A stretch of DNA of 64,000 bases from an uncultured bacterium (GCA_963715945.1 CAVQSL010000007.1:123997-187996); one strand, 5' to 3'. Counted from the first letter of the stretch, positions 5,925 to 38,937 are shown. Notes: generated by a model from the sequence alone, not told the origin. A program made the numbers and translations.

Positions 5925-5976
5925 TCTGTAATTAGTAATATAAAATATTGTGATTAATCGGTATTGACAATAATAA

Positions 5977-6005
5977 TAAAAAGGGCTCCAATGGAGCCCT
6001 TTTTA
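5977..6005. terminator. Bidirectional rho-independent terminator between convergent genes
   Basis: AAAAAGGGCTCC-AAT-GGAGCCCTTTTT: a perfect 7-bp GC-rich stem flanked by an A-run and a T-run. Confidence 0.75.
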
Positions 6006-6027
6006 TTAAGAATGATTTAATTCTTAT

Positions 6028-7320
6028 TTAGTACAAATATCCAAGTCCTATGTAAAGACCGCTATTACCATCTAGTTCATCTTTAGCCATTCCATAGTCA
6101 ACTGCCACAATAAAATTTTCATTCAGGGCTATTCTAAATCCGCCACCAAAGGAAAGGTGTAATCCTTGATCTTCATCAGAGCCGTACAATCTTTCATAGT
6201 CATCGTTTCCGTATTCTGATAATATTTTACCTGCATCAACAAAACCGTTCAGAGCAAGATATAAATTCTGTCCTAACAATTTTGTCCGTAGGAATTTCCA
6301 CCGAGCCTCTAAGTTACCAAAACCAATACTGTTACCTACTAACCTATTTTTAAGTATTCCACGTAAAGATTTAGAACCACCAAGTCCCTCAGTTGCTCTA
6401 TATGAACTTTGATAATGTGGTAACATAAAGAATGGCATTTCACCGCTTAAAACTGTTTGGTATCCTAAACGAACTGCAACTGATAGATCATTTGGAATAA
6501 TAGTAAAATATTGACGATGAGTTCCGGTAAATAACGTATATGAAAAATCGTTTCCTAATCCACTTGGAACTGCAGTAATTAATGCTTCAGTCCACATACC
6601 AGACATTGGATTTGGTTCATTATCACGTGAATCATAAACCAATCCTAATTTAACGTAATTAGTATTGCCACCAAGCGCTTCATCAGCATTAATAGCTGCA
6701 TGATTTACATAATCATCGTATAAAATAGTAATTTCAGGTAATCTATCTGCAGCATCTTTGCCGTCATTTAATTTGGCTGTATCAACCGTGGCAACTTCTG
6801 TGTTGTAATAAGCTAACCCAAGTATCCCGCGCAAATTTGGTACAAACAAATTCTTCTGAAAATCTGTAGTTAATTTTGTGATATTGCGCTCATGGCGATA
6901 GTATATGCGTGATTTATAAGCATCATCATCTTCGAGTTCATGAGCAGGATTATTATCACCATTAAAACCATAGAATGGTAACGCTTGTTCAGTTAAATAT
7001 GCAGCTTCTGCCGTGATTCGAATGTCATAGGGTAGCAGATATTTTGAATCAAAGAATATTATGTTTTCTCCACTTCCTTTTGTAGTGCGAGTCCAAGTTA
7101 GTCTTGTAGTGTATAAATAATCAGGATATTGACTTCCGTCACCATAATTATACACATCAAGAATTGCTCCATATAGAAAACCAGTATCAGAGTTATAAGC
7201 AATTGCCGGAACACCACCAAAACTCCAACCGGTAGGGGCATCCTGCCCAACAGTAACTCCTACTGATAAGCCAATAATAAATATAAAAATTAACACTTTT
7301 TTGCATTTTGTCATTTTCAT
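6028..7320 (-). CDS. Omp85-family outer-membrane beta-barrel protein (no POTRA seen)
   Basis: 430-aa ORF with a signal peptide and alternating beta-strand pattern. It has GGSKSLRG and FVDAG motifs typical of surface-antigen (D15) barrels and an aromatic C-terminus (GLGYLY). Confidence 0.55.
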   Translation of the reverse strand: MKMTKCKKVLIFIFIIGLSVGVTVGQDAPTGWSFGGVPAIAYNSDTGFLYGAILDVYNYGDGSQYPDYLYTTRLTWTRTTKGSGENIIFFDSKYLLPYDIRITAEAAYLTEQALPFYGFNGDNNPAHELEDDDAYKSRIYYRHERNITKLTTDFQKNLFVPNLRGILGLAYYNTEVATVDTAKLNDGKDAADRLPEITILYDDYVNHAAINADEALGGNTNYVKLGLVYDSRDNEPNPMSGMWTEALITAVPSGLGNDFSYTLFTGTHRQYFTIIPNDLSVAVRLGYQTVLSGEMPFFMLPHYQSSYRATEGLGGSKSLRGILKNRLVGNSIGFGNLEARWKFLRTKLLGQNLYLALNGFVDAGKILSEYGNDDYERLYGSDEDQGLHLSFGGGFRIALNENFIVAVDYGMAKDELDGNSGLYIGLGYLY

Positions 7321-7498
7321 CCTCTCTTATTTGAAATTATAATGTCTTATAGGTACAAAATTTATGCAAATTGTATTAAAAACATAGAATTTATTTATTT
7401 CAATTTTAGTATTTTTAATTATCCTAAATCACTTTCTTGATTTATTCATTAATAACAGATAATTTCCCGCCCAATATTTAAAGGATAAATAATATTTA

Positions 7499-7756
7499 AT
7501 GGATAGACACGCACAACAAATTAAACGCGAACGGCAAGACCAGGCTCGTAATGAAATAAATTCTAAAAATAGATCAAAAATGCGCACCCTGATCAAAAAA
7601 GTTTTAGGGACTAAAAACCCAAAAACAGCAGAAGGTTTTTACAAAGAAACAGTTAGTTTTATTGATAAAATGACTTCCAAAAACCTTATTCATAAAAAAA
7701 CAGCTGGTCGTCGTAAAGCTTTAATCACCCGCCACTTTAACTCTTTAGCTAAATAA
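7499..7756 (+). CDS. rpsT: 30S ribosomal protein S20
   Basis: 85-aa basic ORF. IKRERQ...RNEINSKNRSKMRTLIKKV and KNLIHKKTAGRRKA match the S20 pattern. Confidence 0.85.
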   Translation: MDRHAQQIKRERQDQARNEINSKNRSKMRTLIKKVLGTKNPKTAEGFYKETVSFIDKMTSKNLIHKKTAGRRKALITRHFNSLAK

Positions 7757-7758
7757 AT

Positions 7759-7790
7759 ATTGTCATTCCTGCTTTTGTGGGAATGACAAT
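7759..7790. repeat. Intergenic hairpin of the TTGTCATTCC family (probable terminator)
   Basis: ATTGTCATTCC-tgcttttgtg-GGAATGACAAT: an 11-bp perfect inverted repeat between the convergent rpsT and thioesterase genes. Confidence 0.55.
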
Positions 7791-7799
7791 AAATAATAT

Positions 7800-8228
7800 T
7801 TAAATCGGATTTAAGTACTTTTTAAATTCATCCGGTACGGGAATGGTTTTACCTGTATTATAATTTATTGATACTAATACAAAATTGGCCTGCAAGATTG
7901 GTTTATTTTCATCTTTCCTGAAGATAGCTGTTAAAACATCATAGCTTTTAGTACCTATCCTAGAAATCCTCTGACCTATTTCAAATATTGAAGGATGTGC
8001 CGCTTGACCAATATAATTAACTTCCATGGATGCTAATATTGAGCTAGTATCCTGATCCCACCGTTCTAGATCATGACCTATTTGACCATAGAGGTCTAGC
8101 CTAGCAGTTTCCATATAAGTTAGATATTTGGCATGATTGATATGTCGCAAACCATCCATATCACCCCAATGTGTATAGATGGTCGTCCAAAAGTCAAAAT
8201 CATTTCTTGAATATAATTTTATTGCCAT
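7800..8228 (-). CDS. Acyl-CoA thioesterase, hotdog fold (YbgC/4HBT-like)
   Basis: 142-aa ORF. WGDMDGLRHINHAKYLTYMETARLDL resembles the 4-hydroxybenzoyl-CoA thioesterase family N-terminal catalytic region. Confidence 0.7.
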   Translation of the reverse strand: MAIKLYSRNDFDFWTTIYTHWGDMDGLRHINHAKYLTYMETARLDLYGQIGHDLERWDQDTSSILASMEVNYIGQAAHPSIFEIGQRISRIGTKSYDVLTAIFRKDENKPILQANFVLVSINYNTGKTIPVPDEFKKYLNPI

Positions 8229-8362
8229 AAGTACCTATAATTATGTTTTATTACATTAATGCAATCGCAATATTAAGGAAATATAATGAAAGTTCTTAAA
8301 TCTGCTTTAATGATAATTTTATTTTTAATTAAACATGACTGAATAATATTTTTCAAAAATTA

Positions 8363-8386
8363 AAAACCCCGCCAAAAACGAGGTTA
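8363..8386 (-). terminator. Candidate rho-independent terminator for the 8415..10052 gene
   Basis: On the minus strand: AACCTCG-TTTTTGG-CGGGGTT followed by a T-rich run. The stem has one mismatch. Confidence 0.4.
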
Positions 8387-8414
8387 TTTATTATTATCTA
8401 TTTAATAAAAGTTG

Positions 8415-10052
8415 TTAAAATCCAAAACTCGTTTCTAAAAATGACATATTGATCAATTCATTAGCATCTAATACATCACCATCGCCATTTTTATCTAAGT
8501 AAAATCGTTTATAGGAATAATTCATTATCATTCCCCAACCTATCTTAACACCAATTGAAAATCCCAAGACAGTGCTTTCAGTTGGTTCAAACTTGAAGAA
8601 GTTTGGGACATTCCTTTGTTGATAGAATGCGGAAACCGATTGAATATTGCCCAAAGATTGTGTTAACTCGGCTGAAGCCGAAAAACTTTCTAAGGTTTGA
8701 TATTTATATCTACTTAATTCTGGGTTTATTTTATCTCGATACCATTTATCACCTAGCATATGCTGATAAGTCGCCCCGACCATAAAATATTCGTTTATAT
8801 CAACATCGATTCGCCCATATATTCCACGCATTGTTCCAATTTCACCAAGCAAATCCGATTTCGGTTTAACTTTAATTGTCGTAACACCATTAGTCTTAGT
8901 CGATGTCAAGGATGCGCGATTATGTTCATAGGCATAATCCCAATATTCAAAATCGAATTTACCTTTAGGAATCATCCGGTATTCAACTTGCCAGCTTAAA
9001 ATACTAATATGATTAAATACTCCAATCGGGGCAAAACCATACTGCAATTCAACATATTCTCCTGATTCGGGATCACGGGTTGTACCCGACATTTTCGCGA
9101 TCTGACTATAGACAGCTAAGTTTGTCAGTTTGCTTTGTATGATTGGAATTGATAGATCAATGGCTACTGCGCCAACCGATTTAGGATTATCGAGAACATT
9201 TAGCGGTTGATTTTTCAATTTGATGTTATTGTCAGGTATTGTATTATAAAAGGGTTCATTTGAAAAATCCTGCCCAACTGCTGCGCCTAAACTATCCCAA
9301 AAACTATGTATCACATCCAAATTGTCGATATCAGGAAAACCATCACCATCGCGGTCATACTCTCTTGGATCACCATCGGCCAAGCCGTCGTTATCAGAAT
9401 CTAACCAATATCTATCATCGTAAGGGAAACTATCAACAATGTCAGGTCGTCCGTCATAATCTCGGTCTTGGAGTCCAAGATACTGATTTCGATCGTTTAC
9501 GGCACTAATGCCAAGATGTAAACCAGTTGGAATTACACTTGAAACCCGACCTCCTACAACGCTTGCATTCTCTTTAAAATTATTGACAAATCCCTGCGCC
9601 GATATTGATTTAGTTTGGATTTTGGCATCCAACCCGATCTTTCTTTGTTGAGGATAATTAAATGTATTGGAATATCTGTTAACTAATATACCATAACCCA
9701 ACGTTGTACGATTTAGTGCACCTGCTCGGAAATACAGCGGTTCATATCTGGTACCATATTGAATAAAATAGATCTTATCTAAAAGTGTATTTTTTATAGC
9801 AGAACCATTTGAGAAATCCCATTCATCCTGATGTATTTTACCATCTTGATCGAAATACAGAACGATATCCAAACCAAGTTTGATCTTCCAAAAATCAACA
9901 GTGGGACGAAGGGCAAACTGACCCCAAACTTTATCATCAATTGTTGCCAAACCAAAAACGCCTCTTAAGGCAAATGCATTTTGGGCCTGTATGCCAGATA
10001 TGAGTAGAAATAAAATGATTATTATGCGATTTTTCTTCATTGTGTCGACCAT
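8415..10052 (-). CDS. Outer-membrane protein with thrombospondin-type-3-like Asp-rich calcium-binding repeats
   Basis: 545-aa ORF with a signal peptide, the segment DSDNDGLADGDPREYDRDGDGFPDIDN, beta-rich flanks and a C-terminal Phe (SFGF). Confidence 0.5.
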   Translation of the reverse strand: MVDTMKKNRIIIILFLLISGIQAQNAFALRGVFGLATIDDKVWGQFALRPTVDFWKIKLGLDIVLYFDQDGKIHQDEWDFSNGSAIKNTLLDKIYFIQYGTRYEPLYFRAGALNRTTLGYGILVNRYSNTFNYPQQRKIGLDAKIQTKSISAQGFVNNFKENASVVGGRVSSVIPTGLHLGISAVNDRNQYLGLQDRDYDGRPDIVDSFPYDDRYWLDSDNDGLADGDPREYDRDGDGFPDIDNLDVIHSFWDSLGAAVGQDFSNEPFYNTIPDNNIKLKNQPLNVLDNPKSVGAVAIDLSIPIIQSKLTNLAVYSQIAKMSGTTRDPESGEYVELQYGFAPIGVFNHISILSWQVEYRMIPKGKFDFEYWDYAYEHNRASLTSTKTNGVTTIKVKPKSDLLGEIGTMRGIYGRIDVDINEYFMVGATYQHMLGDKWYRDKINPELSRYKYQTLESFSASAELTQSLGNIQSVSAFYQQRNVPNFFKFEPTESTVLGFSIGVKIGWGMIMNYSYKRFYLDKNGDGDVLDANELINMSFLETSFGF

Positions 10053-10230
10053 AAATTATATGAATTTCTAACCTTTACAAACAATTATTAATTGTGAAAT
10101 ATCATTTAGAAGTATCACCTTGTATTGAAAATAATTCGTAAAATTAATCTTACTAATTGTTGATTTTATTAAAATCAACTAAAATTTGACATCAACTGAA
10201 ACAATTTGTTAATAAAACTGTAATTAGATT

Positions 10231-14403: not shown

Positions 14404-15747
14404 ATGAACACTTACAAATTATTTACCATTATTTTATTCTCATCGGTTTTACTTTTTTCTCAATCAATTCCAACCGGAGACCATGCGCTTGGTACAAAAT
14501 CATACGATGACTTTGAAGTTTCAGAAGTTTGTCAGGGCTGTCACAATGATATTTATCAACAATGGAAACAATCAATGATGTCGCAATCTTATACACATCA
14601 TTGGGATGAAATTGAGTACTTTGAGTTAGCTGTACCACATGGAGAAGTTGACTCAAAATACAAACCAGTTGCTGATGGGTGTAACGGATGCCATACACCA
14701 ATGGCATTTCTCGCAGGTGATGTTCCTCCTCCCCGTCCGGGAAAAAATAGCCGTGCAAATGATGGAGTAAACTGCGAAGTATGTCATTCTATCAATGGCT
14801 TTGAAGGAAAGGAACCTTTTAATTTCAATTATATTTCTGATCCCGGCGATGTAAAATTTGGTCCGAAAGATCAATTAGAATCACCCCATCATTCTACTTT
14901 AAAGATCGATTTCATAAGCGAAGCTGAATATTGCGGAACTTGCCATAACGAAAAAAATCCGGAAAATATTTGGGTAAAATCAACTCAACTTGAGTGGCTC
15001 GAAGGTCCTTATTCCAAAGAGCAAGTACCTTGTCATCAATGCCATATGCCAAAAGCTATTGGGAGGAATTCGATCATGTCTGAAGAAGATATGGTTGCAC
15101 AGCATCTTTTCCATGGCGCACATGACCCAGGTAAGGTAGCAGGTGTGGTCGAAATCAGGATGCATCCATCAGAACGAGAAGTAGAAATTGATGGTGCAGT
15201 TACAATAAACGTCCAATTATTCAATGCTAAGACCGGTCATAAATTCCCAACAGGATCCGTAGAGGATCGAATTTTATGGTTAGAGGTTACTGCAACAGAT
15301 TCCGAAGGTAGGGTCTATCAATTACCTGTGGACAAAAAAGGTTTTAAAGGTGAGGAATACACCATCGGCTCGGATGAATTAGCTTACGTTGATATGGGAA
15401 TCCCATTAAGATTACCTGATTTCAATGGTGTTCAGAGAGATGGTGTTCCTGTAGGCAGTAGAATATTCCGTATGCCTTATTTTGACAAAAATGGTGTTAT
15501 GACGATCATGCAATGGAATACACATACTCTAGGAACCGATTATCGCATAGGTCCGCGAGAAACCAAAATAGAAACATATACTTTTGAAATTCCAATCGAT
15601 GCTGCACCGGGAATTATGAATTTTGATGCTACATTGAATTATCAATTATTAGTTAAACCGGTAGCAAATTATCTTAAAGTACCAGCTGAAGAAAGTGAAA
15701 TTATACTTGTCAATACAGGTTCAACTTGGATTGAGATCTACGAATAA
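14404..15747 (+). CDS. Secreted pentaheme c-type cytochrome
   Basis: Signal peptide plus five CXXCH motifs (CQGCH, CNGCH, CEVCH, CGTCH, CHQCH), then a heme-free C-terminal domain of about 200 aa. Confidence 0.8.
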   Translation: MNTYKLFTIILFSSVLLFSQSIPTGDHALGTKSYDDFEVSEVCQGCHNDIYQQWKQSMMSQSYTHHWDEIEYFELAVPHGEVDSKYKPVADGCNGCHTPMAFLAGDVPPPRPGKNSRANDGVNCEVCHSINGFEGKEPFNFNYISDPGDVKFGPKDQLESPHHSTLKIDFISEAEYCGTCHNEKNPENIWVKSTQLEWLEGPYSKEQVPCHQCHMPKAIGRNSIMSEEDMVAQHLFHGAHDPGKVAGVVEIRMHPSEREVEIDGAVTINVQLFNAKTGHKFPTGSVEDRILWLEVTATDSEGRVYQLPVDKKGFKGEEYTIGSDELAYVDMGIPLRLPDFNGVQRDGVPVGSRIFRMPYFDKNGVMTIMQWNTHTLGTDYRIGPRETKIETYTFEIPIDAAPGIMNFDATLNYQLLVKPVANYLKVPAEESEIILVNTGSTWIEIYE

Positions 15748-15761
15748 ATAGGAGAATTATA

Positions 15762-16940
15762 ATGAATTTTGTAACAAAATTATCGAAACTAGTTTTTATA
15801 TATATTGCCATAACATTTATTATTCCTGAAACTTTATCGGCAACGCCGGCTTTTGCGAGAGCGCATAAAGTTTCGTGTACAACTTGCCATACTGTTTTTC
15901 CACGTTTAAGGGATTATGGTAATGAATTCGCAGGAAATGGATTTATCATGAAGGAATCGGAAATTCAGAGAAATTATGTAAGTGCCGGTGATGAAATGTT
16001 ATGGCTAAATAAAACATTCCCAATTGCAGCAAGATTTGATGCTTATGCTGCCTACGATCAAAACAAAGATGTCGAATATGATCTCCAATCGCCTTGGGGA
16101 ATTAAATTACTTTCGGGTGGTACGTTATACAAAAATATTGGGTATTATTTCTATTTCTTCATGTACGAAAGAGGCGAAGTTGCCGGTATCGAGGATGCCT
16201 ATATTCATTTCGATAATATATACGGTTCAAATCTTGATGTGATGGTCGGCCAATTTCAAACATCTGATCCACTGATGAAACGTGAATTACGCTTAACCTA
16301 CGAAGACTATATGGCTTATAAAAATAGGGTTGGTCTATCAAATATCGATCTTGCCTACGATAGAGGTGTGGTTTTAGCTTATGGAGTTGAACAAACAGGC
16401 ACAGATATCGTTGGAACGATAACCAATGGTAACGGTAAACCTGAAAGTGTTGATAGAAGATTGGATCAAGATAATTACAAGAATTTTGGATTTAGAGTCA
16501 ACCAAGGGATAAGTGATTTTATGACTATCGGTGGTTACTATTACTTGGGTAAGGAAAATTCACCGGATATAGATGGAACTAACGAAGTTACCTACTATGG
16601 TCCAGATATGACCGTTGCATTGGAAAATTTTGAATTGACCGCTCAATACTTGAACAGAACGGATACAAATCCAATGTTTGATGGTTCAGCTAATGATATT
16701 AAAACTGATGGTTATGTAGTTGAATTGGTGTATTCCCCTGATATGAATAATTCAAAATATTACATAACTGGTCTGTATAATCTGATAGACTCTGACAATG
16801 GTAAAATGTATAAATATGAAACTGCTACACTAAGTTATACATATTTATTCGCAAGAAATTTGCGGTTATTAGCAGAATATACACGTGACCTAGTTTCTGA
16901 TAATAATATATTTATTTTAGGTATTATCGGAGCGTTTTAA
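15762..16940 (+). CDS. Fused monoheme cytochrome c / outer-membrane beta-barrel (Cyc2-like architecture)
   Basis: Signal peptide (..SATPAFA), then a single CTTCH immediately after the predicted cleavage site. About 340 aa of alternating beta-strand sequence follow, ending in an aromatic C-terminus (GIIGAF). Starts 14 nt after the pentaheme gene. Confidence 0.55.
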   Translation: MNFVTKLSKLVFIYIAITFIIPETLSATPAFARAHKVSCTTCHTVFPRLRDYGNEFAGNGFIMKESEIQRNYVSAGDEMLWLNKTFPIAARFDAYAAYDQNKDVEYDLQSPWGIKLLSGGTLYKNIGYYFYFFMYERGEVAGIEDAYIHFDNIYGSNLDVMVGQFQTSDPLMKRELRLTYEDYMAYKNRVGLSNIDLAYDRGVVLAYGVEQTGTDIVGTITNGNGKPESVDRRLDQDNYKNFGFRVNQGISDFMTIGGYYYLGKENSPDIDGTNEVTYYGPDMTVALENFELTAQYLNRTDTNPMFDGSANDIKTDGYVVELVYSPDMNNSKYYITGLYNLIDSDNGKMYKYETATLSYTYLFARNLRLLAEYTRDLVSDNNIFILGIIGAF

Positions 16941-18685: not shown

Positions 18686-20069
18686 ATGGATTATATGAAT
18701 TTATTTTACGTATTGGCAGCCGTCCTCTTTATTATTGGACTGAAGAAACTAAGTCATCCTAAAACAGCTCGTACTGGTAATATCATCGCATCTATCGGTA
18801 TGCTAATTGCAATCGTTGCAACACTTGTTGGTTTTGAAGTACTCGATTTTAAATTGATTGCTGTTGGAATGATAATTGGCGCAATGATTGGCGCAACATT
18901 TGCGATAAAAGTAAAAATGACCGGAATGCCACAAATGGTTGCGATATTCAACGGTTTTGGTGGTGGTGCATCGGCATTGGTAGCCGCAGCCGAATTTTAT
19001 TCTAAAGGTGGTCACGGCGAGCTAACAACATTTTTACTTTCAACGATTGCCCTAAGTGTATTCGTAGGTACGTTAACATTTACAGGTAGTTTTGTTGCTT
19101 TCGGAAAACTGCAAGGGTTCATTTCTGGTCAACCGATTGTTTTTAAAGGACAAAAATTATTAAACGCCATCATTGCCTTAGTAATAATTGCATTTGCAAT
19201 TGGATTTGTTGTTGTTCCTGCAAATATGTATTGGTATTTCATCGGATTAATAGTATTTGCCTCATTAATAGGCATCACACTTGTAATTCCTATCGGTGGT
19301 GCCGATATGCCTGTTGTGATATCACTACTTGAACTCCTATTCAGGTATTGCAGCTGCAGCAACCGGGTTTGTGTTATTAAATAATGGACTTATCATAAGT
19401 GGTGCATTAGTTGGTGCTTCGGGACTTATACTGACCAATATTATGTGCAAAGGTATGAACCGTTCACTTGCTAATGTAATATTTGGTGCGGTTGGTCTAA
19501 CCCAAGAAGGTGCAAGCGGTGGAACTGGACAACAAATGAATATTAAGAGTTATTCCACCGAAGAAGCCGCTATGATATTTGATGCTGCTGATAAAATCAT
19601 CATTGTTCCCGGATATGGATTAGCAGTTGCACAAGCACAGCATGCTGCACGTGAAGTTGCTGATTACCTTGAAGGACAAGGCAAAAAAGTATTATACGCG
19701 ATTCACCCTGTTGCCGGACGTATGCCTGGTCACATGAACGTACTATTGGCAGAAGCAAACGTACCATACGAACATTTGAAGGATCTTGATGAGATCAATC
19801 CGGAATTTGAGACTTGCGACGTAGCATTGATACTTGGAGCAAACGATGTCGTTAATCCGGCTGCTCGTCATGACAAATCAAGTCCGATCTATGGTATGCC
19901 AATATTGGATGTTGATAAATCACGTACAGTAATCATCAATAAACGTACTATGAATCCGGGATTTGCCGGAATCCAAAATGAATTATTCGGTTTTGATAAT
20001 TCAATTATGGTATTTGGTGATGCAAAACAAATGCTTACTGATTTATTAAAGAATCTTAAAGAACTATAA
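18686..20069 (+). CDS. pntB: NAD(P) transhydrogenase subunit beta, interrupted by an apparent 1-nt insertion near 19331
   Basis: Two overlapping ORFs (18686..19384 and 19329..20069). Joined, they read GGADMPVVISLL|NSYSGIAAAATGF, the conserved PntB junction. The C-terminal dIII domain is intact. Confidence 0.85.
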
Positions 20070-20141: not shown

Positions 20142-20685
20142 TTATTTATTTCTTTTATTCGGTCTTGCACGTATCTGTTCACGCAGATCCTGTGTAAATC
20201 GATTTTTAAATGTTACAAATTTTGCTCTTTGTGCATTATCTAAGATTCCTTTCAATTCATTCATAAAACGTGTTTTCTCATCTACTTTCTGTTTCTCAAG
20301 TTCATGCACTATGTTGATTGTTTTATTGAGATCACTATCCGAAATTTCCTTTCCATCCTCAAGCTTATCTCTTAATTCTTTTGCGGCGATTATTATTTTT
20401 GCATCAATTTTTTCGACATACTTCACGATGCGCTCTCAGTAGTGGAAAGAATTTATCTGCTTGCTCAGGTGTAAGATCAAGATCTTCGGTTAATTTCCAA
20501 GTCATCATCATTTCCATCCGTTCTTGTGATGGACCATGGTCTTGGAAAGCAGGATGTGGATTATTCATCATACCGAATGCACCAAATGATTTATGTATTA
20601 ACTGCGAGGACTTCTCACCTATCGGCTGTGCAATAATAAAAGTCAGTAAGACCATCATAATTGTTATATATTTTATTGTTTTCAT
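20142..20685 (-). CDS. Periplasmic Spy/CpxP-family (LTXXQ motif) protein, apparent frameshift near 20415
   Basis: ORFs 20404..20685 (signal peptide, LDLTPEQADKFFP) and 20142..20426 together align with the paralogue at 21727..22245. Confidence 0.6.
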
Positions 20686-20687
20686 TT

Positions 20688-21056
20688 TTAATTCTCCATG
20701 CTAATATTTTCACTATTTACTTCGTAATAAAATTCCATTGTTGACCAAATATCTTCGCTTTGGTCAGCGAGATAAATCATTAGATCATCATAATACTCAT
20801 CAATCATTTCTTCACTAAGCTCAGCATCTGCATAGTATTGATTATATTGAATATCCGATGCATTGTTTCTTAATTGAGTAAACGTAAATATACCAATAAT
20901 CAAAATGACTGCCATAGCTGATATTCCGTAGGAAATACGTTGCTGTTTACGTATTTTATTTTCACGTGTACGATGCAACTTATCTAAGAAATTGTCTGCA
21001 TCAATATGATTTTGATCTTCAGAAAATAAATTTTGAATTTGTTTTTCAATATTCAT
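20688..21056 (-). CDS. Putative anti-sigma factor (single-pass membrane protein)
   Basis: 122-aa ORF overlapping the sigma gene stop by 4 nt, with one TM helix (ISAMAVILIIGIFTF). The call rests on position only. Confidence 0.45.
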   Translation of the reverse strand: MNIEKQIQNLFSEDQNHIDADNFLDKLHRTRENKIRKQQRISYGISAMAVILIIGIFTFTQLRNNASDIQYNQYYADAELSEEMIDEYYDDLMIYLADQSEDIWSTMEFYYEVNSENISMEN

Positions 21057-21580
21057 TTCACATTTCCTAATTGTTTTTTTAACTGATTAATACCGTAATG
21101 ATAACTAGTTTTAACTGCGCTTTCACTTATGCCAATGATAGAGGCAATATCTTTATGTGGCATATTCTGTGCTACCCGCATTGTTACTACCATTCTCTGC
21201 GTTTTAGGCAGCTTTGCGATAGCATTCCATAGTTCCTGCTTAGTCCAATCGGACTCTGCTCCTGGACTGTCATCAATTTGCTCGGGACTGTCGTCAATAT
21301 GCAACCATTTGCGCCATTTGCTTCGTCCCAAATAATTATTTGCTGCGTTGATGTTAACTCGATATAAATATGTTTTAAAATTTGCTTCAAATCTAAACTT
21401 TTTAAGACTTTTGTATAATTTAAGGAAAACATCCTGTGCCAAATCTTCTGCATCCATTGGGTCATTTGTGATCTTGACAAAAAAGTGATAGGTTTCATCA
21501 AGGTACCGCCGCACCAATTCATCGAAAGCTGTAACGCTTCCGTTTTGATATTGTCGGATGAGTTCATTGTCGTTTTTCAT
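21053..21580 (-). CDS. ECF-type RNA polymerase sigma-70 family factor
   Basis: 175-aa ORF with region 2 (AEDLAQDVFLKLYKSL) and a region 4 HTH (RMVVTMRVAQNMPHKDIASIIGISESAVKTSYHYGINQLK). Confidence 0.85.
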   Translation of the reverse strand: MKNDNELIRQYQNGSVTAFDELVRRYLDETYHFFVKITNDPMDAEDLAQDVFLKLYKSLKKFRFEANFKTYLYRVNINAANNYLGRSKWRKWLHIDDSPEQIDDSPGAESDWTKQELWNAIAKLPKTQRMVVTMRVAQNMPHKDIASIIGISESAVKTSYHYGINQLKKQLGNVK

Positions 21581-21666
21581 CTTTCATTAACAATTTAGAC
21601 ACAGATTGTACAAATAAGTTAAATATTAAATGTAGAATTTATATTAATGTTTCTACTCTATGTTAG

Positions 21667-21698
21667 AAAAGCCCCGCATATTGTAGGGCTTTTCTTTA
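21667..21698 (-). terminator. Candidate terminator after the upstream LTXXQ gene
   Basis: AAAAGCCCCGCA-TAT-TGTAGGGCTTTT (8-bp stem, one mismatch). Confidence 0.5.
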
Positions 21699-21726
21699 AC
21701 TAACCATTGTTAAGGAGTTGACTATG

Positions 21727-22245
21727 TTATCTATGTCTTTTCTGAGCTCTCTTATCTTTTTCCATCATTTTTTCATGTCTAAAATCTTTTGGTGCAATTG
21801 CTAATTTGGCAATTTGTGTATTATCTAATACATCATTTAAACTGTAAATAAATTTATCACGTTCATCAGATATTTTATTCTGCAAGACACTTACTTTTAT
21901 TAAAACATTCTTGAGTTCAGTATCGGATATTTCTTTTTCATCTTTAATCTTATCTCGTAAAACTTCACTAGTCTCAAATATTTCTTTGTTTAACATATCA
22001 ACTATCGCACGATGTTCCCTCATCTTCGGGAAAAACTTTTCAGCTTGTTCGGTGGTTAATTCAAGATGCTGAGTAAGTTTGAATGCCATCATTTGTTCTC
22101 TATTTTCACCTTTGTGTTCTCTATCCATCATTGCCATTTTTTTAGGTTTTTGCATCATTCTTGAGTTACGGCATGCTCTGGGTTGGGCAAATACACTTGA
22201 AACTAAAATTATGCCAATTATTAATAAATGTTGTCTTTTTCATTT
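21727..22245 (-). CDS. Periplasmic Spy/CpxP-family (LTXXQ motif) protein, paralogue of 20142..20685
   Basis: ORF 21727..22158 has LELTTEQAEKFFP. An upstream ATG at 22245 would encode the signal peptide MKRQHLLIIGIILVSSVFAQP only if one A of an A5 run is removed. Confidence 0.6.
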
Positions 22246-22385: not shown

Positions 22386-25360
22386 ATGATTTATAAGCGC
22401 GGAACGTTTACAGCTAACAAGTCGCAAAGTATTGCGATTACATATCCACTCGCTCCACTAATGTTAATCGCAGGTGCGGGAACAGGTAAAACCACTACTC
22501 TGCTCCACCGAATTTATTATTTGATTGAGCATTATAAACTCAAACCGGAGAATATTCTTACGATTACTTATACCGAAAAAGCCGCCGAGGAACTCAAACT
22601 GCGTATTGTTAAAACGATTGGCGATACCGCTAAAGCGATGACGATCAGCACCTTCCATGCTTTTTGTTATAATATCGTTAAGGAACACCAAAATTCCCAC
22701 AATTCCGCACCAATCCTAATGGAAGATGGCGATGCAATTTATCTGTTTCTGCAAAAGTTTGACGAATTAGGTCCATTTGAATCACGTTTATTCGTAACCG
22801 ATCCAGTCAAATCGATTACCAAGAGTTTTATTCCTTTTATCAACCGATTAAGAGATGAATTGATCGACCCAAGTACAAAACCAAATCCAATAATTGATGA
22901 TGATGTATCAGAAGAAACAATCGCCCAACTGAATGATTTAAAACGGATCTATCCGCTATATCAAAAATGGAAGAAAGATCAAAACTTTGTTGATTTTGGC
23001 GATATGATACTTAAGTGTTATGAACTCCTGACAATCTGATGAAAAAGTATTGAAAAGCGTCCAAGACCAATATAAATACATAATTATCGATGAATTTCAA
23101 GATAACAATTATGCATTAAATGAAGTTGTTGGTCAAATCGTAGGATAAATCTGGTCAACTTACAGTTGTAGGTGATGAAGATCAGGTAGTTTACAGTTTC
23201 CGAGGAGCAAGTAAATACAATATTTCATCATTTAGGGAAAGATATAAACATCATAATAGTTATTCTGAAATTTCCTTGGAAGAGAATTTCCGTTCTACTC
23301 AACAAATTCTTGATGTAGCAAATAATTCAATCTCAAATACTAAAGATAGAGAACCTAAACATTTAATAGCTTTCGGTAATAAATCCGGTTCAAAACCGCA
23401 ATTAATTCAATCCGATAATAATTTTCATCCACAGATTATTACCGAAGGAATTAAGGAATTATCTAATACATTTGAATACAAAGACATTGCAGTCCTCTGT
23501 AGAACAAAGGCACAGGTTAAAACTATTTCAGAATATTTGACACGTAATCAGATACCTACTCGCACTTATTTGATTAATTATTTTGAGATTCCTGAGATAA
23601 AAGATTTACTTGCTTGGTGTAATGTAATTGCTGAAACTGAAAATCAAGATGCAGGCTTATATCGATTAATTTCAAGATTAATTGATGAAAATACTGCCAA
23701 CAATGTATTCAGCCAATTTTCAAAGAGGGATTACACATCTCGATTTGAATTAATTAGAAACTATTCAGATTCAGATTTATCAAATCTAATTGATAAAATA
23801 ATTCAATTACGTAATTTGAATAAAAAGAAAAATGGTTCAGAAATGGTATGGGAAATATGTTTACAATCTAATATTTTTAAACCATTAATAAATAATTACG
23901 AATGGCAGGACCAATTAGCAATTCTAAATATCGGACAATTCATTGATCGTTCAGTTAATTTTACCACAAGACATCAAAATGATAATTCTTTAAGATCGTT
24001 TACCAAATACATGACTGTTTTGCAAAAAGCAAACGGAATACAGGCAAAATATCCCAATGAGAAATACGTTTCTCAAACTGTGCTTAGTAAATACAATTCA
24101 TGGTGTAAAAGGCAGTGAATTTCCGATTGTATTTATTCCATTTAATAGATCGGCAAGTTTTCCGTTGAATTTTAGGACAAATGAACTGACAGATTTTCCA
24201 CCGATTAATTGGATATCACACAACAACGATGAACAACTTTCTGTCGAAAGAATTGCATATCGAAGAAGAAAGAAGATTGTTTTATGTAGGCATTACAAGA
24301 TCTAAAGAATTACTTTATTTATTAGCTCCAAATAAAGCTACATCAATATTTATTAAAGAATTAAACAAAGATTTATTAAAGGTAATTGATATGGAAAATG
24401 ATAACATTAATAAACATATAAATAGTTATTCATCATTACGGGACAAATATGAAAAGCGTCTGCTAAATACTCTGAATCAGAACCAGTTTACTATTTCCAA
24501 AGATATTTTGAGTGCAATTGAAAGAATTGAACAAATTGAAAAAGGTGAAATCGTTAGATTGGACAAATACTGATTGGGAGATAGAATTAAAATCGCAAAT
24601 TCGAGAACCATTACAATCCAAAATTCCGGAGAAGCTCAATCTATCAGCAAGTTCCATCGAAACTTACGAACAATGTCCATTAAAATATCGTTTAGGTAAT
24701 ATTGATAAAATTCCACAAGTAAGCAGTAAACCTCAGTTAACCTTTGGAAACATTATTCACAAGGTATTGGAACAATTCCACCGTCCGAATAGTGAGCAAT
24801 CAAAAGAACGATTATTAAAATTATTGAATGATAATTGGGAATCCTTAGGTTTTGACTACGAAACACAAGAACAAGATTTTAAAAAACAAGGAGTTGAAAT
24901 ATTAACAAATTATTTTGATGAATTTAATTAGAAATCCAGTTGAAATAGTACAAAGAGAATATCCATTCTCCTTTGAAATTCAAGATATAATAATTAATGG
25001 TAAAATTGATCGAATCGATAAAGGTGAAGATGGATATAGTGTAATCGATTATAAAACAAGCAAGAATACTACTAAAGCTGAAAAAAGTGTACAGTTAGCA
25101 ATCTATTCTATGTTCTTGCAGCAGGAAAAACAGCTTGATTTCCGTGGAATACCGGAATCTGCTCACTCTATTTTTTACGCGAAAAGGATGAACCGTTGAG
25201 AACTCACAAATTCACTTCTACTGAATTGCAGGAATTGCAAAATAAAATAATTGAAGTTGGAAAAAACATTAGAAATCAAGAATTCAAACCATGCAAAGGT
25301 TTTCATTGCGATTGGTGCGACTATAAGAATTTGTTATGTCCGGAGTGGGAAGAAAAATAG
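22386..25360 (+). pseudogene. UvrD/PcrA/AddA-type helicase with C-terminal PD-(D/E)XK nuclease, at least seven frame breaks
   Basis: Walker A AGAGTGKTTT, IIIDEFQDNN, VVGDEDQVVYSFRGAS, EENFRSTQQIL, TIHGVKGSEFPIVFIPF, RRLFYVGITRSKE, then a nuclease part (GKIDRID...VIDYKTSK) and a Cys cluster (CKGFHCDWCDYKNLC). These are spread over nine fragments in all three frames. Confidence 0.7.

Positions 25361-37598: not shown

Positions 37599-38937
<1,339 letters not shown>

What the first reader, a model, noticed from the sequence alone, without database searches (positions are those of the whole stretch)
14404..16940. Two-gene porin-cytochrome module: pentaheme cytochrome c followed by a monoheme-cytochrome/beta-barrel fusion
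Seen: ORF 14404..15747 has a signal peptide and exactly five CXXCH motifs. Fourteen nt downstream, ORF 15762..16940 has a signal peptide and a single CTTCH within ~10 residues of the predicted cleavage site (FARAHKVSCTTCHTVFPRLRDYGNEF). About 340 aa of amphipathic beta-strand-like sequence follow, ending in ...GIIGAF. Established: a terminal aromatic residue and alternating pattern are typical of outer-membrane barrels. An N-terminal monoheme fused to a porin is the architecture of Cyc2, the outer-membrane iron oxidase of Acidithiobacillus and Zetaproteobacteria. Inference: this is a compact extracellular electron-transfer conduit, for Fe(II) oxidation or for Fe(III)/mineral reduction, in a putative FCB-group organism. 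I cannot establish sequence homology to Cyc2; only the architecture matches.
Basis: partly seen in the sequence, partly recalled or inferred. Interest (0 to 1): 0.6.

Follow-up and report, generated by a model that had tools for sequence, protein, structure and literature searches.

The report
Cyc2-type cytochrome-porin with pentaheme partner
Two adjacent genes encode a five-haem periplasmic cytochrome and an outer-membrane pore with its own haem. The pore belongs to the Cyc2 family of bacterial iron oxidases, and the pair probably lets this uncultured bacterium exchange electrons with dissolved iron or similar compounds outside the cell.

Summary
ORF1 (14404..15747) has a signal peptide, and its ten cysteines form exactly five CXXCH motifs. 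ORF2 starts 14 nt later (15762..16940). Its only two cysteines form CTTCH, 12 residues after the predicted cleavage site, and a predicted 16-strand barrel ending in Phe follows.

- ORF2 carries the published Cyc2 signature AxPxFAR..(3 aa)CxxCH(3 aa)PxL.
- HMMs built from Acidithiobacillus-type and other Cyc2 groups hit it. These groups were retrieved here by the Cyc2 motif and recognised by organism and gene order.
- Its model matches 16-strand porins.
- A 66%-identical orthologue lies in a KSB1 genome already listed as cyc2-like in a published survey.

ORF1 is a full-length homologue of the structurally solved penta-haem cytochrome c552 of Thermochromatium tepidum. It lacks the catalytic Cys and Sec of the related enzyme MccSep.

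The gene pair is conserved, with the pentahaem gene always upstream, in 75 of 76 metagenome loci and 18 genome loci. These span Marinimicrobia, Calditrichia, KSB1, Ignavibacteria, Krumholzibacteria and Thermoanaerobaculia. No other neighbour is conserved. Other Cyc2 groups instead have a downstream dihaem partner.

Verdict: a new variant of a known kind, most likely a compact trans-outer-membrane electron conduit. The direction of electron flow is undetermined.

The parts
14404..15747 (+). ORF1: secreted (probably periplasmic) pentahaem c-type cytochrome, 447 aa. It is a homologue of the penta-haem cytochrome c552 of Thermochromatium tepidum (PDB 5ZE8).
   Evidence: It matches 5ZE8 at E 4e-11 to 8e-11, collinear over three stretches that cover both domains. 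It is 27-29% identical to the c552 family, with all five haem motifs and four further histidines (H163, H234, H240, H279) invariant.
14404..14466 (+). ORF1 signal peptide (about residues 1-21, MNTYKLFTIILFSSVLLFSQS). It has no lipobox cysteine.
   Evidence: Read from the sequence. The AlphaFold model has a helix at residues 2-17. The cleavage site is inferred by eye.
14530..14544 (+). ORF1 haem motif 1, CQGCH (residues 43-47). It is CX3CH in Ignavibacteria-type homologues.
14680..14694 (+). ORF1 haem motif 2, CNGCH (residues 93-97).
   Evidence: Invariant.
14773..14787 (+). ORF1 haem motif 3, CEVCH (residues 124-128).
14932..14946 (+). ORF1 haem motif 4, CGTCH (residues 177-181).
15031..15045 (+). 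ORF1 haem motif 5, CHQCH (residues 210-214), followed by an invariant Met-Pro.
15136..15744 (+). ORF1 C-terminal beta-sandwich (Ig-like) domain, about residues 245-447. It includes the invariant GHK(F/I/V)P(T/S)GS(V/S)E(D/E)R motif. Ser285 aligns with the catalytic selenocysteine of MccSep.
   Evidence: The model's confident strands lie here. Foldseek returns only Ig-like folds. The alignments to 5ZE8 and 9WT9 are, and the motif conservation.
15748..15761 (+). 14-nt intergenic spacer with AGGAG (15750..15754) 8 nt before the ORF2 start codon. This suggests co-transcription and coupled translation.
   Evidence: In 75 related loci the gap is estimated at about -7 to 170 nt, median about 22.
15762..16940 (+). 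ORF2: Cyc2-family fused monohaem cytochrome / 16-strand outer-membrane porin, 392 aa.
15762..15842 (+). ORF2 signal peptide (residues 1-27, predicted cleavage LSA|TP).
   Evidence: Read from the sequence. The model has a helix at residues 3-20. Inferred by eye.
15840..15908 (+). Cyc2 signature region A27-L49: ATPAFARAH-KVS-CTTCH-TVF-PRL. The haem motif is at 15876..15890.
   Evidence: The motif is defined in Keffer et al. 2021. A27, P29, F31, A32, R33, C39, C42, H43, P47 and L49 are invariant in 26 homologues. The same spacing occurs in all 120 motif-bearing genes from other genomes.
16023..16937 (+). Beta-barrel, residues about 88-392: 16 long predicted strands and a C-terminal Phe.
   Evidence: Secondary structure is. 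Foldseek matches OmpU, OmpT, OmpC, OmpK36 and OprO. The barrel-only profile matches the acidobacterial Cyc2-type barrel at 98.8% over 295 columns.
16257..16358 (+). Nearly invariant loop after strand 5 (residues 166-199, QTSDPLMKRELRLTYEDY...). It sits where general porins have the constriction loop L3 and contains invariant M172, D169, E175 and D182.
   Evidence: Conservation is. Its role (pore constriction, haem contact or iron binding) is inference only, because the model is low-confidence here.

Best explanation
ORF1 and ORF2 form a self-contained, co-transcribed two-gene electron conduit across the outer membrane.

Shown for ORF2: it belongs to the Cyc2 family. It has a Sec signal peptide, then one c-type haem held by the Cyc2-specific motif, fused to a predicted 16-strand porin-like barrel.

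Shown for ORF1: it is a secreted five-haem cytochrome with a C-terminal Ig-like domain, homologous over its whole length to the penta-haem cytochrome c552 of T. tepidum. It lacks the catalytic residues of the related enzyme MccSep.

Inferred mechanism: a small dissolved redox species, most likely Fe(II), reaches the single haem in or at the pore. The electron passes to the pentahaem chain in the periplasm, and from there to the respiratory chain (cytochrome oxidases or other reductases encoded elsewhere).

I commit to electron uptake from dissolved Fe(II), as supplementary energy or as iron detoxification in an organoheterotroph. The reason is that every biochemically tested Cyc2-family protein is an Fe(II) oxidase. 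The hardware could equally run in reverse (first rival).

In this clade the pentahaem partner takes the place of the dihaem partner found downstream of cyc2 in the other Cyc2 groups sampled here (the cyc1 position of the A. ferrooxidans rus operon, from my own knowledge).
For: Membership of ORF2 in the Cyc2 family:
- The motif AxPxFAR..xxxCxxCHxxxPxL is as defined for Cyc2, and its haem residues are invariant.
- Barrel-only hhalign gives 98.8% against the acidobacterial type, which links at 85% to the Acidithiobacillus type and 99% to the Nitrospira type. Reversed-sequence controls give 0.1%.
- The model has 16 strands and matches 16-strand porins, including OprO, which Keffer et al. named as a structural homologue of Cyc2.
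- The KSB1 MAG Dive96_bin3.88 carries a 66%-identical orthologue (L070). That MAG is listed as holding a cyc2-like sequence in PMC9769843.

Functional link between the two genes:
- The spacer is 14 nt and contains AGGAG.
- An ORF2 homologue lies directly downstream on the same strand in 75 of 76 metagenome loci with room.
- Both genes are adjacent in the same order in all 18 of the 20 examined genome and assembly loci (window included) in which both were recovered. In the other two, L102 has only 90 nt upstream, and in L106 ORF-calling artefacts hid the pair, which searches show to be present.
- No other neighbour recurs in more than 18 of 94 loci, and those that recur are generic families.

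ORF1 as an electron carrier:
- It matches 5ZE8 at E about 1e-10 along the full length.
- Every cysteine is in a haem motif, and Ile188/Trp189 and Ser285 stand where MccSep has its catalytic Cys239 and Sec325.

Iron theme:
- A DUF2202 ferritin-like lipoprotein lies next to the pair in 8 loci.
- Ferritin lies near the pair in L121.
- Tested Cyc2 proteins are Fe(II) oxidases.
Against: - There is no experimental or expression data for any member of this clade.
- The window protein reads FARAH where the published filter demands FAR[Q/K][T/Y]. The strict filter of Keffer et al. would therefore exclude it, and possibly FeGenie too.
- The authors of the Cyc2 work warn that function is uncertain for divergent Cyc2 homologues.
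- Hosts are mostly organoheterotrophs. Some belong to lineages with Fe(III) reducers (Melioribacter).
- The only characterised ORF1 homologue is described as 'low-potential' in its paper's title (reference list). That fits outward electron flow better than uptake from Fe(II).
- The barrel is 56-92% identical across phyla, unlike the poorly conserved barrels of known Cyc2 proteins (17-53% full-length identity). This hints at a constraint not seen in known Cyc2.
- The haem domain of the model has pLDDT about 30, so the haem's position relative to the pore is unknown.
- No inner-membrane partner is encoded nearby.
Confidence: 0.45

Rival explanations
1. The same hardware runs in the opposite direction. 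Electrons from the quinol pool reach the pentahaem cytochrome and leave through the Cyc2-type haem-porin. They reduce soluble extracellular acceptors such as chelated Fe(III), humic quinones or flavins during anaerobic respiration by these heterotrophs.
For: - ORF1's solved homologue is a low-potential penta-haem protein (title cited).
- In 3 of 3 loci that c552 family sits beside a NapC/NirT-type quinol dehydrogenase, which is the usual entry point for outward electron flow.
- Carriers include Melioribacteraceae and Ignavibacteria. M. roseus respires Fe(III) through an unidentified outer-membrane reductase.
- The other Cyc2 groups sampled have a downstream dihaem partner, which is absent here.
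- He et al. already note that Cyc2 homologues occur in Fe(III)-reducing taxa and may serve extracellular electron transfer other than iron oxidation.
Against: - No Cyc2-family protein has been shown to work as a reductase.
- A single haem in a narrow 16-strand pore cannot touch minerals, so only soluble acceptors are possible (argument of Keffer et al.).
- No NapC/CymA-type gene lies next to the pair in any of 94 loci.
- The haem potentials of ORF1 and ORF2 are unknown.
Confidence: 0.3
2. ORF1 is a periplasmic pentahaem enzyme rather than a wire. It would be a reductase or peroxidase for a small molecule such as reactive oxygen species or a sulfur or nitrogen compound. ORF2 would be its dedicated outer-membrane channel, with the haem serving to sense or to feed electrons.
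For: - ORF1 is unusually conserved (74% mean column identity across phyla).
- An invariant GHKxPxGSxED motif sits exactly where the related enzyme MccSep has its active-site selenocysteine.
- MccSep (ExtKL) is a periplasmic polysulfide reductase. To my knowledge its gene cluster, extHIJKL, also encodes a porin; this was not checked here.
- Only four conserved non-motif histidines are available for five haems, so one haem may have an open or Met-ligated site.
- In L121 the pair lies among ferritin, superoxide reductase, AhpC and SOD genes.
- The window has glutaredoxin and PntAB as neighbours.
Against: - The catalytic Cys and Sec of MccSep are absent, and the NCBIfam ExtKL score is 64 bits against a cut-off of 250.
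- There is no NrfA-type CXXCK motif, and Pfam Cytochrom_C552 does not hit.
- ORF2 carries the full Cyc2 haem signature, which this model does not explain.
- The stress-gene context is seen in one locus only and is not conserved.
Confidence: 0.15
3. The two genes are unrelated neighbours, or ORF2 is an ordinary porin whose CXXCH is incidental.
For: - Pfam and NCBIfam give ORF2 no family; Porin_4 scores only E 0.047.
- Every database name for it is 'hypothetical protein'.
Against: - CXXCH is invariant, embedded in a 20-residue signature shared with Cyc2, and formed by the protein's only two cysteines.
- The pairing holds in 75 of 76 metagenome loci and 18 genome loci across at least seven phylum-level lineages, while all other neighbours vary.
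Confidence: 0.03

Closest known systems
Cyc2 fused cytochrome-porin family: A. ferrooxidans Cyc2, Leptospirillum Cyt572 and Mariprofundus Cyc2 PV-1 (Keffer et al. 2021, PMC8406198; McAllister et al. 2020, PMC7029218)
   Same: - Signal peptide, then a single CXXCH preceded by AxPxFAR and followed by PxL with identical spacing.
- The following xxFGxxFxxNG(Y/F) stretch is also shared.
- Size is about 390-480 aa, with a predicted 16-strand porin and a C-terminal aromatic residue.
- Reciprocal HMM hits and transitive barrel profile hits.
   Different: - The window protein has Ala-His where the published motif has [Q/K][T/Y]; the clade consensus is R/K-Y.
- At 392 aa it is at the short end of the family.
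- The barrel is 56-92% identical across phyla, against 17-53% full-length identity among known Cyc2 proteins.
- The partner is an upstream pentahaem c552-like gene rather than a downstream dihaem gene.
- Hosts are FCB-group and Thermoanaerobaculia heterotrophs, not lithotrophic iron oxidisers.
- Its place in Cyc2 clusters 1-3 was not determined.
Penta-haem cytochrome c552 (low-potential cytochrome) of Thermochromatium tepidum, PDB 5ZE8 (Chen et al. 2019)
   Same: ORF1 aligns along the full length (E about 1e-10). Both have five collinear haem motifs, four conserved extra histidines, the HxxPTG motif and a C-terminal Ig-like domain, and both are about 430-450 aa.
   Different: - Identity is only 27-29%.
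- ORF1 lacks a roughly 40-residue insert between haems 3 and 4 and has an insert in the Ig-like domain.
- The c552 family sits beside a NapC/NirT tetrahaem gene plus a multihaem gene and has no porin.
- The function of c552 is itself unknown.
ptdAB of the ptdABCDEFG cluster (preprint 10.1101/2023.11.21.568154)
   Same: [quoted passage not shown] The authors propose a porin-cytochrome complex of unknown function in marine bacteria.
   Different: - ptdC to ptdG (flavoprotein, tetrahaem, Fe-S protein, ferric-reductase-like membrane protein, decahaem) are absent here and in all 94 related loci.
- The ptd hosts listed are Alpha- and Gammaproteobacteria, Nitrospirales, Nitrospina, Planctomycetota, Acidobacteriota, Verrucomicrobiales and Gemmatimonadales, not the FCB lineages found here.
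- PtdB is described only as a porin, with no haem mentioned.
- I could not obtain Ptd sequences, so homology of PtdB to ORF2 is untested.
MccSep / ExtKL multihaem selenoprotein of Geobacter (PDB 9WT8/9WT9; preprint 10.1101/2025.11.18.688581)
   Same: It has the same two-domain fold class (five-haem cap plus Ig-like stem), is periplasmic, and gives a weak but significant sequence match (E 4e-4 against PDB; NCBIfam 64 bits).
   Different: - ORF1 has Ser285 at the Sec325 position and no Cys at the Cys239 position, and it is far below the family cut-off.
- MccSep is a polysulfide reductase. Its porin partner ExtI is, to my knowledge, a larger haem-free barrel.
MtrAB/MtoAB/PioAB and other porin-cytochrome complexes
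   Same: They follow the same overall logic: a periplasmic multihaem cytochrome gene next to an outer-membrane barrel gene, moving electrons across the outer membrane.
   Different: - Those barrels have 26 strands and enclose a decahaem wire.
- Here the barrel has 16 strands, is too narrow to enclose a 447-aa two-domain protein, and carries its own covalently bound haem.
- ORF1 matches the Pfam MtrC/MtrF domain below threshold (27.1 bits against a cut-off of 30).

Membership tests
Cyc2 fused cytochrome-porin | N-terminal secretion signal | tested here: met
   Residues 1-27 have a basic start, a hydrophobic core and LSA|TP, read by eye. The model has a helix at residues 3-20. No dedicated signal-peptide predictor was available.
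Cyc2 fused cytochrome-porin | Exactly one CXXCH, close to the mature N-terminus | tested here: met
   CTTCH lies at residues 39-43 and holds the only two cysteines in the protein. It is invariant in 26 of 26 homologues.
Cyc2 fused cytochrome-porin | Core of the family-specific motif, AXPXFAR, upstream of CXXCH | tested here: met
   A27-T-P-A-F-A-R33. A27, P29, F31, A32 and R33 are invariant. The three-residue spacing to the first Cys is the same in all 120 motif-bearing genes from other genomes.
Cyc2 fused cytochrome-porin | Last two motif positions [Q/K][T/Y], used as a hard filter by Keffer et al. | tested here: not met
   The window protein has A34-H35. The clade consensus is R/K-Y, and orthologues such as L070, L049 and L085 read FARKY and pass. 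The window protein itself fails the strict filter although its close orthologues pass. I therefore file it as a divergent member or variant, on the strength of the HMM evidence.
Cyc2 fused cytochrome-porin | PXL motif with Pro four residues after the haem His | tested here: met
   H43-T-V-F-P47-R-L49. P47 and L49 are invariant.
Cyc2 fused cytochrome-porin | Length of at least 365 aa | tested here: met
   392 aa. The FeGenie and Keffer cut-off is quoted.
Cyc2 fused cytochrome-porin | 16-strand porin domain | tested here: met
   The AlphaFold2 model has 16 long strands between residues 88 and 391. Its overall pLDDT is 64.8; barrel blocks are mostly 73-87 over residues 200-390 and about 50-73 over the first five strands. 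The top 50 Foldseek PDB hits are mostly 16-strand porins, including OprO (E 2.6e-12 to 1e-7, TM-score normalised to the target 0.5-0.68). Barrel closure could not be inspected directly.
Cyc2 fused cytochrome-porin | Sequence homology to accepted Cyc2 proteins (FeGenie Cyc2 HMMs and cluster assignment) | tested here: inconclusive
   FeGenie HMMs are not available here, so I used proxies.
- HMMs built from Cyc2-type genes of Acidithiobacillus-type, acidobacterial and Nitrospira groups hit ORF2 at 58.8, 111 and 53 bits. A Mariprofundus sequence hits at E 1.3e-5.
- The barrel-only signal reaches the Acidithiobacillus type only transitively.
- A published FeGenie-based survey lists the MAG that holds a 66%-identical orthologue as cyc2-like. 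The machine-read alignment there is garbled, so the exact gene cannot be confirmed.
- Assignment to cluster 1, 2 or 3 was not done.
Cyc2 fused cytochrome-porin | Fe(II) oxidase activity, covalent haem and outer-membrane location | not testable with these tools
   This needs biochemistry. No study of this clade turned up in 4 literature searches.
Penta-haem cytochrome c552 (5ZE8) family | Five collinear haem motifs plus a C-terminal Ig-like domain, with significant full-length similarity | tested here: met
   phmmer gives E 8.1e-11 and the profile E 4e-11, with three collinear stretches. In the alignment, five motifs and H163, H234, H240 and H279 are invariant across both families. ORF1 forms a separate subfamily: its family HMM scores its own members at 524 bits or more when complete or nearly so (230 bits for a 122-residue end fragment) and c552 proteins at about 50 bits.
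MccSep / ExtKL selenoprotein | Catalytic Sec/Cys at position 325 and haem-ligating Cys239 | tested here: not met
   ORF1 has Ser285 and Ile188/Trp189 at the aligned positions and no cysteine outside CXXCH. NCBIfam NF040886 scores 64.4 bits against a cut-off of 250.
ptdAB module | A penta-haem, beta-sandwich protein followed directly by a porin | tested here: met
   The gene order and domain content match the description in the preprint.
ptdAB module | Downstream ptdC-G genes, and sequence homology to PtdA and PtdB | tested here: not met
   No ptdC-G-like genes lie downstream in the window (PntA follows) or in L106, L121 or L122, and none recurs among 94 loci. Homology to PtdA and PtdB could not be tested because only accession numbers are available.
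MtrAB-type porin-cytochrome complex | 26-strand barrel enclosing a decahaem cytochrome | tested here: not met
   The barrel has 16 strands. The partner has five haems plus an Ig-like domain. NCBIfam DmsE/MtrA and OmcA/MtrC scores are far below their cut-offs.

The most novel reading that the evidence does not exclude
The pair defines a distinct, strongly constrained clade of the Cyc2 family that evolved its own pentahaem partner. It works as a stand-alone, mobile two-gene electron gate in the outer membrane of the FCB superphylum and Thermoanaerobaculia.

The carriers would include Marinimicrobia (SAR406), which to my knowledge are abundant in the dark ocean and in oxygen-deficient zones. If active, these supposed plain heterotrophs exchange electrons with dissolved iron, humic substances or oxidants. 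That would be an overlooked biological term in marine and sediment iron redox cycling.

It would also show that the Cyc2 scaffold is a general-purpose single-haem pore, not only an iron oxidase of lithotrophs. The near-invariant L3-like loop with Met172 may hold the haem inside the pore.
Probability: 0.3. Interest if true: 0.7.

Novelty: new variant of a known kind. Interest (0 to 1): 0.45.

Why it matters
Cyc2 is the main genetic marker used to infer microbial iron oxidation from genomes. The authors of the Cyc2 work state that the function of divergent homologues in organisms not known to oxidise iron is uncertain.

This clade is large: more than 2,000 clusters at 90% identity for each gene. 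It occurs in lineages that are mostly uncultured, and sources name ORF2 homologues only as hypothetical proteins and ORF1 homologues at most generically. Its fixed partnership with a c552-like pentahaem cytochrome gives a defined, two-component system that could be expressed and tested.

Showing which way electrons flow would decide whether FeGenie-type 'iron oxidiser' calls in Calditrichota, KSB1, Krumholzibacteriota, Ignavibacteria and Marinimicrobia are right. It would also give a first functional context to the structurally solved but functionally unassigned penta-haem c552 family.

Tried and rejected
- Pfam and NCBIfam on ORF2 gave no family; Porin_4 scored only E 0.047.
- PDB sequence search with the ORF2 profile returned only chance CTP-synthase hits at E above 0.1, so there is no solved relative.
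- The AlphaFold model of ORF1 is poor (mean pLDDT 47; the haem domain is below 50, as expected without cofactors). Its Foldseek search returned only generic Ig-like folds, so it adds nothing beyond 'the C-terminal domain is a beta-sandwich'.
- The promoter and terminator scan is uninformative in this AT-rich DNA: 32 promoter-like sites against 22 expected, 3 terminator-like sites against 2.7 expected, and none after ORF2.
- Cluster look-ups of distant ORF2 relatives gave almost no names.
- The supplement of Keffer et al. holds identity tables but no sequences.
- Two papers on Cyc2 evolution and networks do not mention FCB lineages.
- Papers on Melioribacter and Ignavibacterium do not mention this gene pair.
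- The attempt to reach ptdAB loci through the metagenome scan failed, because the best 80 loci were all close relatives at 58-95% identity. They were used for neighbourhood statistics instead.
- Distant solo Cyc2-like relatives (P0392, P0361) have no pentahaem neighbour.
- A relaxed HMM search found no distant ORF1 homologue beside any other Cyc2 type.
- Considered and rejected: an NrfA-type nitrite reductase (no CXXCK, no Cytochrom_C552 Pfam hit), a MccSep-type enzyme (catalytic residues absent), an MtrAB-type complex (16 strands, not 26), and a T9SS-exported surface cytochrome (no sorting domain).

Full report
**1.

ORF1 (14404..15747, +, 447 aa) and ORF2 (15762..16940, +, 392 aa) exist as described.
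- ORF1's ten cysteines form exactly five CXXCH motifs, at residues 43, 93, 124, 177 and 210.
- ORF2's only two cysteines form CTTCH at residues 39-43.
- The remaining 17.5 thousand ORF residues of the window contain no CXXCH (0.011 expected). No shuffle of either protein reproduces the counts.
- The 14-nt spacer carries AGGAG 8 nt before the ORF2 ATG.
- Both proteins start with Sec-type signal peptides and have no lipobox. ORF1 has no T9SS sorting domain, although a neighbouring gene has one.

**2. ORF2 belongs to a large, tightly conserved family**

ORF2 has more than 2,100 homologue clusters. The top 120 are 56-92% identical and about 390 aa long. None has a functional name; the sources call them 'hypothetical protein' or give no name. 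They come from Candidatus Neomarinimicrobiota/Marinimicrobia, Calditrichia, KSB1, Krumholzibacteriota and Zhuqueibacterota.

In 26 diverse members the haem motif and a surrounding signature, AIPAFAR(R/K)YK(I/V)SCxTCHxxFP(K/R)L(K)xYGxEFAGNGF, are invariant or nearly so, and the C-terminus is (A/G)(F/Y).

**3. ORF2 is a Cyc2-family protein**

Keffer et al. 2021 define the Cyc2 fused cytochrome-porin family by these features:
- a signal peptide;
- one CXXCH;
- an AXPXFAR[Q/K][T/Y] motif just upstream and PXL just downstream;
- a length of at least 365 aa;
- a 16-strand porin resembling OprO/OprP.

The window protein reads ATPAFARAH-KVS-CTTCH-TVF-PRL. The core motif and PXL fit. The two last motif positions are Ala-His instead of [Q/K][T/Y], although close orthologues read FARKY.

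To obtain Cyc2 reference proteins, I scanned one genome per species for the back-translated strict motif. All 120 loci returned carry the motif about 25-60 residues into proteins that are about 390-550 aa long where the gene is complete. They include Mariprofundus and Zetaproteobacteria (L003, L047), Acidithiobacillus (L021), Leptospirillum (L120) and Nitrospira (L010).

The Acidithiobacillus-type group often has a dihaem gene of about 200-240 aa within 10-31 nt downstream. From my own knowledge this is the cyc2-cyc1 order of the rus operon, and it supports these loci as canonical Cyc2 references.

Sequence tests:
- The window family's HMM hits all 120 proteins through the cytochrome domain. 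This is partly circular, because those genes were selected by the motif.
- The reverse test is not circular, because window ORF2 itself fails the strict pattern. HMMs built from the Acidithiobacillus-type, acidobacterial-type and Nitrospira-type groups hit window ORF2 at 58.8, 111 (full length) and 53 bits. The Mariprofundus protein hits it at E 1.3e-5.
- With the cytochrome domain removed, the barrel profile matches the acidobacterial-type barrel at 98.8% probability over 295 columns.
- That group in turn matches the Acidithiobacillus type at 85% and the Nitrospira type at 99%. Reversed controls give 0.1%.
- The Mariprofundus barrel is undetectable from every group, including the Acidithiobacillus type (0.2%). 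So this clade is no further from accepted Cyc2 proteins than they are from each other.

Structure:
- The AlphaFold2 model has mean pLDDT 64.8. Barrel blocks are mostly 73-87 over residues 200-390 and about 50-73 over the first five strands; the haem domain is about 30. It has 16 long strands.
- It matches 16-strand porins such as OmpU, OmpT, OmpC/OmpK36, chitoporin and OprO at E 1e-12 to 1e-9.

Prior literature: a published hydrothermal-vent survey lists KSB1 MAG Dive96_bin3.88 among genomes with cyc2-like sequences. A contig from that MAG (L070) holds an orthologue 66% identical to ORF2. Cyc2-like genes in these phyla are therefore already on record.

**4. ORF1 is a c552-like pentahaem cytochrome**

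- It has more than 2,500 homologue clusters, even more conserved than ORF2 (63-90% identity in the top 120; 74% mean column identity).
- Locus tags already show adjacency to ORF2 homologues, for example K9N35_10690/10695 and JW960_20640/20645.
- It matches PDB 5ZE8, the penta-haem cytochrome c552 of Thermochromatium tepidum, at E about 1e-10. [quoted passage not shown]
- An alignment of both families keeps all five motifs and four extra histidines.
- It matches MccSep/ExtKL, a periplasmic polysulfide-reducing selenoprotein, only weakly. It lacks that enzyme's haem-ligating Cys239 and its Sec325, where ORF1 has an invariant Ser285.
- The ORF1 model is poor in the haem domain. Only the C-terminal beta-sandwich is confident.

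**5. The pair is the unit**

- Among the motif loci, every member of the close clade with visible upstream DNA has an ORF1 homologue immediately upstream on the same strand.
- In 80 further metagenome loci found through ORF1, 75 of the 76 with 300 nt or more of downstream sequence have an ORF2 homologue directly downstream. The estimated gaps run from about -7 to 170 nt.
- No other neighbour is conserved. The most frequent flanking families occur in at most 18 of 94 loci and are generic (protease-like, sigma-54 activator, TPR).
- Carriers named in the records include Caldithrix, Krumholzibacteriia, KSB1, Melioribacteraceae, Ignavibacterium album, Kapabacteria, Bacteroidetes and Thermoanaerobaculia.
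- A Gemmatimonadota sister clade of ORF2 lacks the pentahaem gene.
- Other Cyc2 types have a downstream dihaem gene or no cytochrome neighbour.
- The c552 family proper sits beside a divergently transcribed NapC/NirT-type tetrahaem gene plus a roughly 500-aa multihaem gene, with no porin.

**6. Closest described arrangement**

A preprint on oxygen-deficient-zone Alphaproteobacteria names a ptdABCDEFG cluster. [quoted passage not shown] Five more genes follow, and the function is stated to be unknown.

The present module has the same first two elements and none of ptdC-G. I could not obtain Ptd sequences, so whether PtdB is Cyc2-like remains untested.

**7. How it most likely works**

Shown:
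- a secreted pentahaem protein and an outer-membrane-type barrel with a Cyc2 haem signature;
- tight coupling of the two genes, and their co-inheritance.

Inferred: the barrel's haem exchanges electrons with a small dissolved species at the pore, and the pentahaem chain relays them across the periplasm.

For Fe(II) uptake (iron oxidation):
- All three tested Cyc2-family proteins are Fe(II) oxidases.
- A ferritin-like DUF2202 lipoprotein adjoins the pair in eight loci.

For the reverse direction:
- The solved homologue of ORF1 is described as 'low-potential'.
- The c552 family is associated with a quinol dehydrogenase.
- The hosts are heterotrophs, and Fe(III) respiration through an unidentified outer-membrane reductase is known in Melioribacter.

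For an enzymatic role of ORF1:
- its extreme conservation;
- the invariant motif at the MccSep active-site position;
- one locus embedded among oxidative-stress genes.

My probabilities are about 0.45 for iron or electron uptake, 0.30 for outward transfer, 0.15 for an enzyme plus channel, and 0.03 for no functional link.

**8. Verdict**

This is a real, non-random feature.

It is a new variant of a known kind: a Cyc2-family clade with an unusually conserved barrel and its own c552-like pentahaem partner. The clade is widespread but uncharacterised.

Interest is moderate. Cyc2-like genes in these phyla have already been reported from FeGenie surveys. However, the obligatory pentahaem partnership, the stand-alone two-gene organisation and the unknown direction of electron flow are, as far as my searches show, undescribed and directly testable.

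Noticed in passing
window 18686..20069 (+): pntB (NAD(P) transhydrogenase beta subunit) is split into two overlapping ORFs, 18686..19384 and 19329..20069. They match Pfam PNTB profile positions 2-215 and 214-455, so this is a frameshift, an assembly error or a pseudogene. Other same-strand overlapping ORF pairs look similar but were not checked: 29608..31206 with 31160..31546, 37909..38937 with 37599..37931, and the helicase-like pieces at 22386..24931.
   Followed up: partly
L043, L065, L158, L186, L187, L188, L198 (upstream of the pair) and L207 (downstream): A roughly 200-aa DUF2202 (ferritin-like) protein, with a lipoprotein-type signal in L065, lies 190-250 nt upstream of the pentahaem gene on the same strand in seven Ignavibacteria-type loci. 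In L207 it lies directly after the Cyc2-like gene. It may be a third, lineage-specific component with an iron or oxygen link.
   Followed up: partly
L121 (CP070762.1), about 4485..10134: In one 5.2-Mb genome the pair lies between ferritin, desulfoferrodoxin and AhpC/peroxiredoxin genes upstream and an Fe/Mn superoxide dismutase gene downstream. This is a single case and is not conserved elsewhere.
   Followed up: partly
L124, L125, L126: The T. tepidum-type penta-haem c552 gene, whose function is unknown in the literature, has the same divergently transcribed neighbours in 3 of 3 loci: a NapC/NirT-type tetrahaem gene plus a 485-523-aa multihaem (PF13447) gene. This suggests c552 works with a quinol-linked multihaem enzyme.
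   Followed up: no
L020, L021, L022, L028, L034, L079, L113 and L001, L005, L015, L072, L075, L099: Acidithiobacillus-type Cyc2 genes are followed within 10-31 nt by a 200-225-aa dihaem gene. Acidobacterial-type Cyc2 genes are followed within 10-55 nt by a 260-330-aa dihaem gene. Partner type and position therefore track the Cyc2 subgroup.
   Followed up: partly
L011, L026, L043, L054, L065, L081, L090, L093 (ORF1 homologues): In Ignavibacteria- and Melioribacter-type homologues the first haem motif is CX3CH (for example CGSSCH) instead of CXXCH. Simple CXXCH counting therefore calls these proteins tetrahaem.
   Followed up: yes
window 8415..10052 (-): A 545-aa protein has a signal peptide, aspartate-rich repeats in the middle and a C-terminal ...SFGF. 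It has no Pfam or NCBIfam family. It is probably an outer-membrane barrel of an undescribed family.
   Followed up: no
window 20142..22158 (-): An ECF-type sigma-70 factor (21053..21580) overlaps a probable anti-sigma gene (20688..21056). Three small lysine- and glutamate-rich ORFs with no Pfam match flank them (20142..20426, 20404..20685, 21727..22158). This is possibly an envelope-stress module 3 kb downstream of the pair.
   Followed up: partly
window 16257..16358 (ORF2 residues 166-199): The loop after predicted strand 5 (QTSDPLMKRELRLTYEDY...) is almost invariant across phyla and contains invariant Met172 and several acidic residues. It may be the constriction loop, a sixth haem ligand or an iron-binding site. 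The model is low-confidence here.
   Followed up: no
L019, L013, L025, L037, L004, L083, L096: Gemmatimonadota and Longimicrobiales carry a sister clade of ORF2 (38-43% identity) with no pentahaem gene upstream. The partnership therefore arose, or was lost, within the family.
   Followed up: partly
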